From Acidobacteriota bacterium (GTDB taxonomy: Bacteria; Acidobacteriota; UBA6911; RPQK01; JAJDTT01): a stretch of 64,000 bases of DNA. The notes beneath the pieces are model-generated. The model was given only the letters and a program-made list of their open reading frames with translations, searched no databases and was not told the DNA's origin. The stretch lies in NCBI GenBank assembly GCA_965217775.1, contig CBDCJH010000002.1, forward strand, positions 3,200,001 through 3,264,000, in the 5' to 3' direction. Made by a program: the position numbers and the translations under genes. Shown here piece after piece: positions 12,131-15,199 of the stretch (within the stretch, counting starts at the first letter, position 1; every line of letters begins with the position of its first letter).

Positions 12131-13701
12131 CGTTGCGTCCCGCTACGTCGCGTGCCGGCGACTCTCAACACGGGCCTTTGAATAGCCTCACATTCCCCAT
12201 ACGGTCACCGTGGCCCCACCCGCCGTTTCGTCGCGGCGATAGATCTTGTCTTCCCATGACCTCCCCTCGGAGCGGTCGAAGATCACGAGGTGTCCCTCCG
12301 ATGCGGCGCAGCGTTCCATGTAGGCGCGCGTTTGCGCCAAGCCTTCGCGAAGCGTTGCATCGAGGCCCCGATGCAGCACTTTGCATTCGACGACCACCTT
12401 CTGCATCTGCCGGTCCGTTCCGGATTGCGCCTCGCTGGCGCGCCCTGCAACTGGTGACAGGATCAACAGATCCGTCCGCCTCCGGCCCAGGCCGTACTCG
12501 CGCTCGATCCGCCCGCCGCTGTTGACGATGCGCTGCAGGAACGCTTGCAACAAAAGTTGTGGGCCAGCCTCCTTGTACTGGAAGCGCTCCACCCAGTGCT
12601 CCGAGTGCTCCCGGAAGAACTCCTGGAACGCGGCCATCAGCTTGACGGACCGCAACGCCCCGTTCTCATCGACGTACCACGCCGGATCGTGATGGATCGA
12701 CATCTCCTGAGTGGTATAGGTGAGACCGCGCGGGATCACTTCGCGGTAGATGGGATTGGCGATGGCCACGGGGCCGGTTCGCGTCACCAGGCCCAGGTCG
12801 CGCACATACGCCAGATCGTCGGCTGGGATCGGGTCAACCGCGCCGGACCCCTTCAGCAGCGGCTCGACGACCCGGCGCACCCGCTCCTCCTGCAGCTTGT
12901 CGGTGAGCTGGTCCAGATGGGTCTCGCGACGCAGGATCAATTGCTCGCGCGCGTCCTGGATGGCGTCGCCGGTGATCTCCCGGCTACGGTCCCGGCCTTC
13001 CTTGTTGTCGAAACAGGTTTCGTAGGCCAGGGCGTTCACCAGCCAGGGCTGGCCCTGCGTCAACCTCCAGATCTCGTCCCGCCCCTCGTCCGTGAACACT
13101 TGGTCCGTCTCCCCGGTATGTTGTGCCAACAGGGACTCGACCTCGCGTGGCAAGAAATCTCCGAGCCGCAGGGATTCGGCCCGAATGTTGAATGCGCTGC
13201 CACCGGCGACGATGGCGTTTTCGGCCCTGGACCGAATTCGGTAGTCGCGCACGTCGCGAACGCCGCACAGAATCACGCTCTGGGGAAACCGCCGGGGGCG
13301 GTCCGGATAACCGGCCCGGAGCTGACGCAATACCGACAGCAGCGTGTCGCCCATCAGCGCATCGATCTCGTCGATCATGAGCACGAGCGGCTTGGCGTCG
13401 GCTTCGCTCCATCGGGCCAGCGTCTCCCCCAGCGCGTCGTTGGGGCCCGCTGTTGCTAGAATCCCCGGCCAAACTTCAGCCACGAACAGGTCGTCCAGCG
13501 CGTGGCGCGCCGCCCGCGCCAGGGCGCTGAGGATCGCTCGCACACCCTCACGGACATTTTCCCGGGCCGCCGGGCCGCCGGGCCGCCTTCGACGTTGACG
13601 TACACGCACCGGAACTCGCCGCCGAGGTTCAACTCGTCCCTCAGCGCCAGCAGTGCCGAAGTCTTGCCCGTCTGACGCGGCGCGCGCAGGACGAAGTATT
13701 T

Positions 13702-13810
13702 GGGGCTTATATACCTAAGTGCCATTGGCATACAGTTCTGGCACCACGCTTTCCCCAACGAGATACGTTCCGGTACCCAGGGCAAGAACCCCAGCCCTGA
13801 GAATGTTCAG
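13702..13810 (-). ncRNA. Putative omega/reRNA scaffold overlapping the tnpB 3' end and the right TIR
   Basis: Minus-strand stems CAGGGC/GCCCTG, GGTACC/GGTGCC and TGTATGCC/GGTATATA; loop GGGGTT complementary to the terminal AGCCCC. The 5' boundary is uncertain. Confidence 0.55.
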
Positions 13811-14890
13811 GGCGGCATTGTGGTCCCTGTCCATTCTAAGTCCGCAGGCCCTGCACCGGAAGGTTTCGCTCCGCCCTGGATCGTGGCGGGCGCCGCACCG
13901 GTGGCAGTCCTGCGATGTAAATGCGGGATTCACGTCTACGAACTTCCGACCGGCCCATTCTGCCTTGTACTGGATTTGATTCCGCAGAAGCCCCCAGGAT
14001 TGCGTCAGTATTTCTCGATTCAGCCCCTTCTTCTTCGAGCCCTTCGTTACCATCCCTTGGATGTTCAGCTTCTCCACAGCGATCAGACCGTGCTCACGAA
14101 TGATGCTGCTGGAGAGACGATGGCAGGCATTACGGTTTCGGACCGATTCCCGGTGACGGAGCCGAGATAGCTGTACGATCCGCTTCCGTCTGGTCTTGGA
14201 AATCTTCTTGCACCTGGAGACCTTTCTCTGCTGCTTTCGGATCCCCGCCCAGTCCCGTCTATTCCGTTCGATCCTCTCACCCGTGGACAGCACCGCTCGC
14301 TGGCGGACTCCCAGGTCGATCCCCACCGAAGACTCGCATTTCGGCAGCGGCAGCTTCTCCACCTCGTACGTCAGGTCCACGGACACCCGGTTCGGCTTGC
14401 GGACGATCCGCAACGCCTTCAACGGGCATCCGTTCGGCAACGGCCGGGACGGAAAGATCCGGATCGTCGGAAAGCCCTTGGGCCGGATGGCGTAGCCCCG
14501 AGCCCGCTTCTTCACCAGGGTCGCCTTGGGGTCGACGACGTCCATGGTCTCCATCCTCGCCAGGGGCCGGAACCGAGGATACCCCGGCTTCTCCCCCGCC
14601 TTGCATCGACGGAAGAACGCCTGGAAGGCCCGATCCAATCGAACCAGCATCCCACGCTCCGCCTTGACCGCCACTGACCCGAGCCCCTCCGGATCTTCCT
14701 TCCTCATGGAGGTCAACCCCTTCATCTGATCGTACAGGGTCACACCGCGCTGCTCGGACTCCCATGCCATCCTCCGTTCCTCCAGTGCCGCGTTGTACAG
14801 CCGATTCAGGATGGACCTCACCCAGTCCAACCGCCGGATTCCACCCTTGGACAGCTTGGCTCTGCACTGGATAGTTGCGTGGCCTTTCAT
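13715..14890 (-). CDS. tnpB: TnpB RNA-guided endonuclease (RuvC intact)
   Basis: 'LYNAALEERR', 'KPGYPRF', RuvC-I VGIDLG, RuvC-II IAVEKL, Zn finger TSQDCHRCG...CRACG, RuvC-III DRDHNAALNI. Confidence 0.95.
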   Translation of the reverse strand: MKGHATIQCRAKLSKGGIRRLDWVRSILNRLYNAALEERRMAWESEQRGVTLYDQMKGLTSMRKEDPEGLGSVAVKAERGMLVRLDRAFQAFFRRCKAGEKPGYPRFRPLARMETMDVVDPKATLVKKRARGYAIRPKGFPTIRIFPSRPLPNGCPLKALRIVRKPNRVSVDLTYEVEKLPLPKCESSVGIDLGVRQRAVLSTGERIERNRRDWAGIRKQQRKVSRCKKISKTRRKRIVQLSRLRHRESVRNRNACHRLSSSIIREHGLIAVEKLNIQGMVTKGSKKKGLNREILTQSWGLLRNQIQYKAEWAGRKFVDVNPAFTSQDCHRCGARHDPGRSETFRCRACGLRMDRDHNAALNILRAGVLALGTGTYLVGESVVPELYANGT

Positions 14891-15199
14891 GGTAGGACTT
14901 GTAAACCATCAGCCTGAATTCTCGGCACTTAGGCATATAATCCCCAAGTATTTCCACTGCCGGATGAGCATCAGGAAATCGTCGACGTCGAGCCGCTCCA
15001 GGGGCGGGATACTGTAGTGCATTTCCGGGTTCACCGGGCCGGCGGTGTTGAAGAAACGCATAGTTTGAGTATCGCACGTTGTCTCGGGTCACGCAGTGCA
15101 CCGAGAGGAGGGGCGTCCTCGGAACAAGACGCGGCATCGCCTCAAGACGCTGTAGACAGCAGGGTCGGAAGAACTGAGACGTGAACCGGTACGAGCAGT

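What the first reader, a model, noticed from the sequence alone, without database searches (positions are those of the whole stretch)
13680..13810. Predicted omega-RNA appears co-adapted to the TIR, so the guide would begin at the TSD
Seen on the minus strand: the tnpB stop codon lies inside the right TIR. Upstream hairpins CAGGGC-TGGGGTTCTT-GCCCTG and GGTACC..ACG..CGT..GGTGCC-AGAA resemble TnpB scaffolds. TGTATGCC can pair with GGTATATA in the TIR, and loop GGGGTT (13792-13787) is complementary to the terminal AGCCCC (13707-13702). The right end reads GGGGCT where the left reads GGGGAT, which favours this pairing. No IS605-type subterminal hairpin is left. Established: TnpB reRNAs form a pseudoknot with the last element nucleotides just before a flank-derived guide. 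Inference: the guide is AAAUACUUCGUCCUGC.... Because DDE insertion gives no fixed upstream motif, the TAM must be relaxed, be supplied by a duplicated AT-rich TSD footprint, or self/non-self discrimination works differently.
Basis: inference. Interest (0 to 1): 0.85.

Follow-up and report, generated by a model that had tools for sequence, protein, structure and literature searches.

The report
TnpB guide-RNA element moved by IS1595
A small jumping-gene cassette carries only an RNA-guided nuclease gene (tnpB), borrows a cut-and-paste transposase from a neighbouring insertion sequence, and has a guide-RNA fold that has co-evolved with the cassette's terminal repeat.

Summary
Window 13702-14945 (minus strand) is a 1244-bp element. 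It has 22-nt imperfect terminal inverted repeats (TIRs) and an 8-bp target-site duplication (TSD), AAATACTT. Its only gene is an intact tnpB, whose stop codon lies inside the right TIR. An uninterrupted copy of the target site exists in six related genomes.

The genome holds 12 copies. It also holds a 1762-bp IS1595-family insertion sequence whose TIRs are almost the same, so that element is the likely transposase donor in trans.

Across 21 relatives the 3' end of tnpB plus the right TIR keeps a TnpB-type guide-RNA (omegaRNA) fold. 97.1% of base-pair cells are paired, and 14 of 32 pairs show changes on both sides. This puts the start of the guide at the TSD, or one base into it.

Among 22 insertions, the base before the left TSD is G in 21 and the first TSD base is A in 22. 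The transposase-bearing elements show G|A in only 7 of 22. I read this A-N-R-G-G motif as the candidate target-adjacent motif (TAM).

TnpB linked to DDE transposons is already in print, so this is a new variant of a known kind.

The parts
14954..14958 (-). Candidate TAM in the left flank (AGTGG; family consensus A-N-R-G-G). It sits directly 5' of the left TSD.
   Evidence: 22 tnpB-element sites: G(-1) 21/22, G(-2) 15/22, A(-5) 13/22. In 22 autonomous IS1595 sites the same counts are 9/22, 5/22 and 3/22. That it acts as a TAM is inferred, not tested.
14946..14953 (-). Left copy of the 8-bp target-site duplication AAATACTT.
   Evidence: The empty site with a single copy is seen in 6 related genomes.
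14924..14945 (-). Left terminal inverted repeat GGGGATTATATGCCTAAGTGCC.
   Evidence: It matches the TIR of the 1762-bp IS1595 element at 21 of 24 positions; the commoner copy type matches at 23 of 24.
13715..14890 (-). tnpB, 391 aa, intact.
   Evidence: Pfam OrfB_IS605 6.3e-17 and Cas12f1-like_TNB 2.1e-25. NCBIfam guided_TnpB 2.8e-60. Aligns with ISDra2 TnpB over residues 31-376, E 4.8e-32, with the D/E/D and CxxC..CxxC columns conserved.
13702..13799 (-). Predicted omegaRNA scaffold; this is the minimum extent and the 5' end is unknown. Hairpin 1: 13799-13794 with 13783-13778. Hairpin 2: 13777-13772 with 13745-13740. Inner helices: 13768-13766 with 13748-13746, and 13763-13760 with 13755-13752. 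Hairpin 3: 13734-13728 with 13714-13708.
13787..13792 (-). 5' strand of the pseudoknot (GGGGUU, in the loop of hairpin 1). It pairs with 13707-13702.
   Evidence: helix 2: 96% of cells paired. Pair 43-139 reads GC 19, AU 2. Pair 44-138 reads UG 15, AU 2, CG 1, unpaired 3. A second, distant lineage (L180) has loop GGGAAU and terminus AUUCCC.
13702..13723 (-). Right terminal inverted repeat. It contains the tnpB stop codon (13717-13715), the 3' strand of hairpin 3 and the 3' strand of the pseudoknot (AGCCCC, 13707-13702).
13686..13701 (-). Predicted guide AAAUACUUCGUCCUGC: the right TSD copy (13701-13694) plus 8 flank bases.
   Evidence: Inferred from the position of the pseudoknot and from the ISDra2 architecture (PMC10097598). 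The empty allele in a sister genome reads CAGTGG-AAATACTTCGTCCTGC.

Best explanation
This is a non-autonomous insertion sequence of the IS1595 (DDE) family in which tnpB stands in place of the transposase gene.

Shown here:
- It has TIRs and an 8-bp TSD, and it sits inside an AAA-ATPase gene that is intact in sister genomes.
- The genome holds 12 copies. 11 of them keep an open tnpB frame, and dN/dS is about 0.3.
- An IS1595 element in the same genome has near-identical TIRs, and none of the transposase-bearing elements I fetched carries tnpB.
- The last roughly 100 nt of the element keep a conserved fold, supported by covariation. It consists of three hairpins plus a pseudoknot between the hairpin-1 loop and the terminal six bases of the TIR.

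Inferred:
- A transcript that reads out of tnpB through the right TIR is the omegaRNA. The TIR terminus closes the pseudoknot.
- The 16 or so nt that follow (the TSD plus the flank) are the guide.
- TnpB with this RNA cuts DNA that carries the uninterrupted target preceded by the left-flank motif A-N-R-G-G. That is the empty allele, on a sister chromosome copy or on incoming DNA.
- Homologous repair of that cut copies the element in, or keeps it there.
- The occupied site is spared because CCCC of the TIR occupies the TAM position.
- Only insertions that landed next to this motif, and in the right orientation, gain the benefit. This would explain why nearly all surviving copies have it.
For: Element anatomy:
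- TIRs, the TSD and the stop codon inside the TIR.
- 12 copies: 10 with a perfect 8-bp TSD, 1 with a 7/8 match, 1 with none.
- An empty site with a single TSD copy in 6 of 6 related loci examined.
- An RNA-library contig that joins 13693 to 14946, which is the empty allele.

Transposase partner:
- The 316-aa protein of the 1762-bp element matches DDE_Tnp_IS1595 at 1.6e-38 and NCBIfam transpos_IS1595 at 4e-52. Its TIR matches at 23 of 24 positions.
- tblastn with TnpB gave 0 hits on the 50 loci fetched around IS1595 transposases.

TnpB is probably active:
- Family matches.
- D192, E273, D356 and the zinc-finger cysteines are invariant in 8 subfamily proteins and align with ISDra2 TnpB.
- 10 of 12 copies have a 391-aa frame, and an eleventh has a 393-aa frame. 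Median dN/dS is 0.33 over 45 pairs.

RNA fold:
- 97.1% paired, 14 of 32 pairs changed on both sides, 0 of 500 shuffles reach the observed value, slid controls 32-47%.
- RNAalifold independently finds hairpins 1 and 2.
- The pseudoknot covaries. In L024 and L029 the loop GGGG becomes GGGA and the terminus CCCC becomes UCCC. That loop change also alters the protein, V to N.
- L180, at 42% protein identity, shows the same GGGAAU/AUUCCC pairing.
- Identity of synonymous codons is 70.6% (337 comparisons) in codons 353-385 against 54.5% (3834 comparisons) upstream.
- In ISDra2, bases -5 to -3 pair with -103 to -105 (PMC10097598, passage). Here -1 to -6 pair with -91 to -86.

Flank motif:
- G|A at the left TSD boundary in 21 of 22 tnpB elements against 7 of 22 autonomous elements (Fisher p = 1.8e-5).
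- The base after the right end is A in 31 of 31 distinct junctions, and in 33 of 34 when L174 and L176 (A) and L168 (G) are added.

Read-through:
- No terminator-like site between the stop codon and the flank (0 found in 13600-15060).
- One contig from an RNA library (run X17, 334 nt) runs from inside tnpB across the right end and 48 nt into the flank of another copy.
Against: - No RNA ends, no strand information and no cleavage data. The RNA runs are kept as contigs, they may contain DNA, and only one contig qualifies as bridging the right end.
- The pseudoknot's covariation rests on few independent events: L024 and L029 are one lineage and L180 a second. Three of its six pairs never vary. 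Three sequences have U-U at pair 44-138.
- RNAalifold offers another partner for the terminal CCC, namely GGG at columns 5-7 of the alignment.
- The single-sequence minimum-free-energy fold uses a different pairing around hairpin 1, and its z-score is only -1.95.
- The flank motif could come from target choice by the transposase. The autonomous elements have an orientation-linked bias of their own: C at -2 in 14 of 22 sites.
- The sites come from six genomes of one genus. Two of them (L024 and L040) lie in the same orthologous spacer.
- A cut-and-paste DDE excision already leaves a double-strand break, so the benefit from TnpB is less obvious than it is for IS605 (argument in PMC13565253, section 6.2).
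Confidence: 0.6

Rival explanations
1. The flank motif reflects target choice by the transposase that moves these particular elements. It is not a TAM, and the real TAM of this TnpB is something else or is relaxed.
For: All IS1595 elements here insert at S|W...W|S sites. The autonomous ones show an orientation-linked C at -2 in 14 of 22 sites, so asymmetric target choice is possible. Several different IS1595 transposases exist in these genomes, and which one moves which tnpB subfamily has not been shown.
Against: The G|A signature holds across tnpB subfamilies whose inner TIRs differ and resemble different autonomous elements. It also holds in subfamilies whose two termini are identical (L023, L024, L027). 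The constraint spans -5 to +1, which is the length and position of a TnpB TAM. The autonomous elements with the closest TIRs show G|A in 4 of 15 sites (read).
Confidence: 0.2
2. A Fanzor-like arrangement: the 3' TSD copy belongs to the RNA scaffold, the guide starts after the TSD, and the 5' TSD copy serves as the TAM.
For: This is how Fanzor RNAs in TSD-making eukaryotic transposons are described (PMC13565253 section 6.2; PMC10711439 figure 5 legend). The first TSD base is always A, and bases 2-3 are A or T. At least one flank base could therefore be scaffold, like the right-flank nucleotide of IS607.
Against: TSD bases 4-8 vary freely. Bases 7-8 are no more constrained than in autonomous elements. 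The extra constraint lies upstream of the TSD, where a TAM inside the TSD would not need it. With a TAM inside the TSD, the occupied site would keep both TAM and target, so the element would cut itself.
Confidence: 0.12
3. TnpB here is a passenger or an exapted regulator and does no RNA-guided cutting. The conserved 3' structure serves transposase binding or translation control.
For: No biochemical data exist. Exapted and inactivated TnpBs are described (PMC10691335).
Against: The catalytic and zinc-finger columns are invariant. There is purifying selection among mobile copies. The fold matches TnpB omegaRNA architecture, including the pseudoknot next to the flank. The left TIR binds the same transposase but lacks the partner sequences.
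Confidence: 0.05

Closest known systems
DDE-transposase-associated TnpB branches (Altae-Tran et al. 2023, PNAS, PMC10691335; section 9 read)
   Same: TnpB lies inside elements with inverted terminal repeats. The 3' end of tnpB is close to the element end. Solo tnpB copies are flanked by ends like those of transposase-bearing elements, which implies mobilisation in trans.
   Different: The readable text names only IS630. A later review (PMC13565253) adds ISL2 and IS1031. IS1595 is not named in any text I could search. Figure 4 and the supplements were not visible, so this family may be one of their six branches. I saw no description there of a pseudoknot made with the TIR terminus, or of a flank motif.
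ISDra2 TnpB-omegaRNA (IS200/IS605; PMC10097598, passages)
   Same: The protein aligns over residues 31-376. The RNA overlaps the 3' end of the gene. A pseudoknot joins the bases just before the guide to a site about 90-105 nt upstream. The guide comes from the right flank and the TAM from the left flank.
   Different: ISDra2 has no TIRs and no TSD, is moved by a Y1 transposase as single-stranded DNA, and inserts 3' of TTGAT. Here the ends are DDE-type TIRs, the first 8 guide bases are a duplicated target sequence, and the terminal scaffold bases must also serve as the transposase's recognition end.
Fanzor / Fanzor2* in eukaryotic TIR-TSD transposons (PMC10711439; PMC13565253)
   Same: A TnpB-type nuclease captured by cut-and-paste transposons. 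The RNA runs through the TIR into the TSD and flank. The RNA boundaries are re-set to suit the transposase.
   Different: Fanzor TSDs are short and fixed; they are read as TAM on the 5' side and as scaffold on the 3' side, and Fanzor1 has lost the pseudoknot. Here the TSD is 8 bp and mostly variable, the pseudoknot is kept, and the conserved motif lies outside the TSD.
IS1595 family insertion sequences
   Same: 8-bp TSD, and a partner transposase with the zinc ribbon and the DDE_Tnp_IS1595 domain. From memory of ISfinder, not from any call: the TIR start GGnnATTAT is that of the ISNwi1 group, and some members carry passenger genes.
   Different: This element has no transposase of its own. Its passenger is an RNA-guided nuclease whose RNA uses the TIR.

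Membership tests
TnpB (RNA-guided nuclease, OMEGA system) | OrfB_IS605 / RuvC core and C-terminal zinc-ribbon domain | tested here: met
   Pfam PF01385 6.3e-17 and PF07282 2.1e-25. NCBIfam guided_TnpB 2.8e-60, above its cut-off.
TnpB (RNA-guided nuclease, OMEGA system) | Intact RuvC D-E-D triad and CxxC..CxxC zinc finger | tested here: met
   D192, E273, D356, C329, C332 and C349 are invariant in 8 proteins and align with the GVDVG, GTEHL and DRDEN motifs of ISDra2. Which ISDra2 residues are catalytic is recalled from memory, not taken from a call.
TnpB (RNA-guided nuclease, OMEGA system) | Structured RNA overlapping the 3' end of the gene, with a pseudoknot next to a flank-derived guide | tested here: met
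   Covariation counts, RNAalifold, L180. That the RNA exists has not been shown.
TnpB (RNA-guided nuclease, OMEGA system) | RNA-guided, TAM-dependent DNA cleavage | not testable with these tools
   Only an indirect signature: the flank motif.
IS200/IS605 (IS1341-type solo tnpB) | No TIRs, no TSD, subterminal hairpins, insertion 3' of a fixed 4-5-nt site, Y1 transposase partner | tested here: not met
   The ends match at 20 of 22 positions as inverted repeats, and the 8-bp TSD is proven by empty sites. The genome has only 3 weak Y1_Tnp matches, none beside an element.
IS1595 family (as a non-autonomous derivative) | TIRs shared with an element encoding a DDE_Tnp_IS1595 transposase | tested here: met
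   23 of 24 TIR positions match the 1762-bp element. Transposase family assignment.
IS1595 family (as a non-autonomous derivative) | 8-bp target-site duplication | tested here: met
   22 tnpB-element sites and 22 autonomous sites have 8-bp TSDs.
IS1595 family (as a non-autonomous derivative) | Own transposase gene | tested here: not met
   The only ORF with a family match is tnpB. Mobilisation in trans is inferred and has not been demonstrated.
Fanzor-type RNA boundary (TSD inside the scaffold) | The 3' TSD is a constant part of the scaffold and the 5' TSD is the TAM | tested here: inconclusive
   Only TSD base 1 is fixed, and bases 2-3 are restricted to A or T; the rest vary.

The most novel reading that the evidence does not exclude
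TnpB, or its recognition of the TAM, takes part in choosing or fixing the insertion site of a DDE transposon. Either TAM-bound TnpB steers the IS1595 transpososome to G|A sites in one orientation, or it works as a drive: it cuts every empty chromosome copy, so that only TAM-adjacent insertions ever reach fixation. On either reading a DDE element would have become dependent on an RNA-guided nuclease, with the TIR terminus serving both as the transposase's end and as a strand of the guide-RNA pseudoknot.
Probability: 0.15. Interest if true: 0.85.

Novelty: new variant of a known kind. Interest (0 to 1): 0.66.

Why it matters
How TnpB-type nucleases work inside transposons that make target-site duplications is known mainly from eukaryotic Fanzors. 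For bacterial DDE elements, the text I could read reports only the association.

This family offers a compact, multi-copy bacterial case with concrete predictions that can be tested:
- a roughly 100-nt scaffold that ends at the TIR terminus;
- a pseudoknot whose two strands have changed together with the transposase's recognition end;
- a guide that begins with the duplicated target;
- a candidate 5-nt TAM, read from the flanks of the surviving copies.

If the TAM reading holds, the near-complete flank bias shows that the nuclease determines which insertions of a DDE element persist. It also yields a small TnpB with a G-rich TAM.

Tried and rejected
- Rfam gave nothing for 13500-15100. There were two sub-threshold chance matches, E 0.69 and 8.8.
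- The metagenome scan found 172 relatives. Of the 80 loci kept, only three (L179-L181) reach 42-47% identity, and the rest are 39% or lower. L181 showed no recognisable end. L180 would not align with the others in MAFFT, so I left it out of the counted alignment (A3) and described it separately.
- A possible upstream stem in the DRDHNAA codons was dropped, because its register differs between subfamilies (read).
- Promoter scan: no sigma-70-like site on the tnpB strand inside the element. The promoter is unknown.
- RNA-library contigs:
  - No contig covered 14621-14926 in any of the 4 runs. Because the runs were found with words from 13600-14100, this says nothing.
  - Depth figures were not interpreted.
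  - X1 record 3 has only 30 letters on the flank side, below the 31 required, so it is not counted as bridging.
- The Y1 transposase search found only three weak, distant matches.
- I did not test which IS1595 transposase moves which tnpB subfamily. I also did not test whether the genomes carry NHEJ genes or are polyploid.
- Rows dropped before the flank counts:
  - tnpB elements without a TSD match of at least 7/8: L007, L027, L030, L014.
  - Loci where only one end was found: L021, L022, L033, L058, L168, L172, L174, L176, L179, L180.
  - Autonomous elements without a perfect TSD: L101, L105, L107.
  - L006 and L024 were added by hand after the pattern had missed one of their ends.
- The supplements and figures of PMC10691335 were not visible. 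They may already list this family, its ends or its TAM.
- The nine papers were seen only as a search listing.
Full report
**What is there.**

On the minus strand, window 13702-14945 is a 1244-bp element.
- The two 22-nt ends match as inverted repeats at 20 of 22 positions. The left end is GGGGATTATATGCCTAAGTGCC and the reverse complement of the right end is GGGGCTTATATACCTAAGTGCC.
- The element is flanked by a direct 8-bp repeat, AAATACTT, at 14953-14946 and 13701-13694.
- Its only gene with a family match is tnpB (14890..13715, 391 aa). Matches are Pfam OrfB_IS605 and Cas12f1-like_TNB and NCBIfam guided_TnpB at 2.8e-60.

The element interrupts a gene for an AAA-ATPase-domain protein.
- In a sister genome that gene is an intact 537-aa frame (AAA_22, 2.3e-09).
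- In 6 of 6 related loci examined, the left and right flanks overlap by exactly the 8 bp. The closest one reads CAGTGG-AAATACTT-CGTCCTGC.
- The duplication is therefore a real target-site duplication, and the element inserted by a mechanism that makes staggered cuts. That is not how IS200/IS605 elements move.

**Copies and partner.**

The window's genome is 6.43 Mb in 2 contigs.
- It holds 11 full-length copies at 92-100% identity to this one, one at 84%, and fragments.
- Of the 12 copies, 10 have perfect 8-bp duplications, one has a 7/8 match and one has none.
- Ten have an open 391-aa frame and an eleventh a 393-aa frame.
- Among the ten, pairwise identity is 95.2-98.7% and median dN/dS is 0.33 over 45 pairs.

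A search for the terminal motif turned up a 1762-bp element in five copies.
- Its TIR is GGGGATTATATACGAAAGTGCCGA. It matches the commoner tnpB-element left end at 23 of 24 positions and this copy's left end at 21 of 24.
- It has 8-bp duplications.
- It encodes a 316-aa protein with the zinc ribbon and DDE domain of IS1595 transposases (DDE_Tnp_IS1595 1.6e-38; NCBIfam transpos_IS1595 4e-52).

Distribution:
- The transposase is found in 14 of 15 genomes of the taxonomic family.
- tnpB of this type is found in 6 of 15, all in one genus.
- In a sample of 401 genomes of the phylum it is found in 3, at E <= 1e-70.
- None of the 50 loci fetched around IS1595 transposases gave a tblastn hit to TnpB.

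The tnpB elements are therefore solo cassettes, most simply moved in trans. The tnpB subfamilies differ in their inner TIRs, and some resemble other autonomous IS1595 elements. For example, L023/L025 resemble L122.

**The RNA.**

I aligned the last 128-142 nt of 21 distinct family members (alignment A3).
- 97.1% of 657 cells are standard pairs, against a shuffle mean of 87.5% (0 of 500 shuffles reach the observed value).
- When the 3' partners are slid by 1-3 columns, only 32-47% of cells pair.
- 14 of 32 pairs have changes on both sides. Hairpin 1 has 3 such pairs out of 6, hairpin 2 has 4 of 6, and the inner helix has 3 of 4.
- RNAalifold, run without my structure, recovers hairpins 1 and 2 and the inner helices.

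The pseudoknot (columns 40-45 with 137-142; window 13792-13787 with 13707-13702) is 96% paired.
- Three pairs never vary.
- Pair 43-139 reads GC in 19 sequences and AU in 2.
- Pair 44-138 reads UG 15, AU 2, CG 1 and unpaired 3.
- Pair 45-137 reads UA 17, UG 2 and unpaired 2.

The two AU sequences (L024, L029) belong to a subfamily in which both TIR termini read GGGAATT. In them the loop reads GGGAAU, a change that also turns a valine codon into asparagine. A distant relative left out of the count (L180, 42% protein identity) has TIR terminus GGGAATT and a hairpin loop CGGGAAUCC. This is a second, independent instance.

Pair 102-132 reads UA 12, AU 3, GU 3, and pair 104-130 reads CG 6, GC 3.

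Synonymous codons are more conserved in the part of the gene that overlaps the RNA: 70.6% of 337 comparisons against 54.5% of 3834.

The architecture parallels the solved ISDra2 RNA, where bases -5 to -3 pair with -103 to -105 (PMC10097598, passage). Here bases -1 to -6 pair with -91 to -86.

Caveats:
- There are few independent changes in the pseudoknot.
- RNAalifold finds an alternative 3-bp partner for the terminal CCC.
- The single-sequence fold is weak, z = -1.95.

**Where the guide starts, and the TAM.**

If the pseudoknot's 3' strand is the element's last six bases, the guide starts at the flank.

I compared 22 distinct tnpB-element insertions that have a TSD with 22 insertions of transposase-bearing IS1595 elements, the latter oriented by their transposase gene.

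| Position | tnpB elements (n = 22) | Autonomous elements (n = 22) |
|---|---|---|
| Base before the left TSD (-1) | G 21 | G 9, C 9 |
| First TSD base (+1) | A 22 | A 11, T 10 |
| -2 | G 15 | G 5 (C 14) |
| -5 | A 13 | A 3 |
| G\|A at the left boundary | 21 | 7 (Fisher p = 1.8e-5) |

- In the opposite orientation the autonomous elements show G|A in 5 of 22.
- The 3' end of the TSD and the right flank are no more constrained than in the autonomous set.
- The base after the right end is A in 31 of 31 distinct junctions found by pattern. Adding L174, L176 and L168 gives 33 of 34. The exception, L168, abuts a fragment that resembles a left end.
- The signature holds in subfamilies whose two termini are identical, so it does not come from asymmetry between the TIRs.

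A constraint that spans -5 to +1, on the side that never enters the RNA, is what a 5-nt TAM next to a guide starting at the TSD would leave. It requires only that TAM-adjacent insertions persist. In the occupied site the same positions read GCCCC, which would protect the element from its own RNA.

I cannot tell whether the invariant A is the last TAM or scaffold base or the first guide base. In IS607 one right-flank nucleotide belongs to the scaffold (PMC10711439, figure 3 legend).

The main rival is a target preference of the transposase. The autonomous elements' own C at -2 shows that such asymmetries do exist.

**Mechanism proposed.**

Shown:
- The anatomy, the copies and the empty sites.
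- A partner transposase with matching ends.
- A conserved, covarying fold.
- A flank signature.

Inferred:
1. The transposase inserts the cassette.
2. Transcription reads through the right TIR. No terminator-like site was found there.
3. TnpB binds the RNA.
4. The complex cuts the uninterrupted target when A-N-R-G-G precedes it.
5. Recombination with an occupied copy restores or spreads the cassette.

RNA-library contigs give weak support only.
- One 334-nt contig from one study runs from inside tnpB 48 nt into the flank of another copy.
- One 173-nt contig from another study carries the empty allele of this very site. Empty and occupied alleles therefore occur in such communities.
- Contigs show no ends and no strand, and DNA carry-over is possible.

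**Comparison with what is known.**

TnpB inside DDE transposons with inverted repeats is already published, including solo tnpB flanked by ends like those of transposase-bearing elements (PMC10691335, section 9).
- That text names IS630. A 2026 review adds ISL2 and IS1031 and notes that such associations are rare in prokaryotes (PMC13565253, section 6.2).
- Full-text searches for TnpB with IS1595 gave 9 papers, none on this topic by title or abstract. TnpB with ISXO2 gave 0 papers.
- The figures and supplements of the PNAS paper were not visible.
- For eukaryotic Fanzors, the TSD is described as TAM on the 5' side and scaffold on the 3' side. The present element differs: its TSD is long and mostly variable, it keeps the pseudoknot, and its motif lies outside the TSD.

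I file it as TnpB, with the family features met. It is not IS200/IS605, because the TIR and TSD features were tested and fail. I treat it as a non-autonomous IS1595 derivative. The resemblance of the TIR start to the ISNwi1 group of ISfinder is recalled from memory and was not tested.

**Verdict.**

- The premise about a missing upstream motif is contradicted by the flanks.
- This is a new variant of a known kind.
- Interest is moderate to high, because it turns an open question into specific assays: how TnpB works with a DDE transposon in bacteria.

Noticed in passing
window 13558-13589: The interrupted AAA-ATPase gene also carries an 8-bp tandem insertion (a GGCGGCCC-type repeat) relative to the intact gene of a sister genome. 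This shifts the frame downstream of the insertion, so the gene has decayed further since it was interrupted.
   Followed up: partly
own genome C2:836929-838690 (L099:201-1962) and four further copies: The 1762-bp IS1595 element has about 700 bp beyond its transposase gene, including a 107-aa ORF of unknown function. Its insertions, oriented by the transposase gene, show C at -2 in 14 of 22 sites with no mirror-image G on the other side. This asymmetry is unexplained.
   Followed up: partly
L024 (1435-2684) and L040: Two different tnpB subfamilies, one with terminus GGGAATT and one a 649-bp deletion derivative with GGGGCT, sit in what looks like the same orthologous intergenic spacer of two genomes. 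The left flank is identical (CAGATAGG), and both TSDs begin AAAC. This could be a hot spot, or one element replacing another.
   Followed up: no
own genome C2:1186777-1188025 (copy c6); L027; L030: Three full-length copies have no matching TSD. Recombination between copies would produce this, leaving each end with the flank of a different insertion.
   Followed up: no
window 13693/14946 in run X1: A 173-nt contig in a metatranscriptome library joins the two flanks with a single TSD copy. This is the empty allele of this site, and the same library holds contigs of the element.
   Followed up: partly
L168:2557-2700: The single right end not followed by A abuts a sequence that resembles a truncated left TIR of the c1-type element. 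This may be a nested or abutting insertion.
   Followed up: no
L023/L025 versus L122; L024 versus L110: The inner TIR sequences of different tnpB subfamilies resemble those of different autonomous IS1595 elements. Some of those autonomous elements are in another genus. This hints that tnpB cassettes have switched transposase partners more than once.
   Followed up: no
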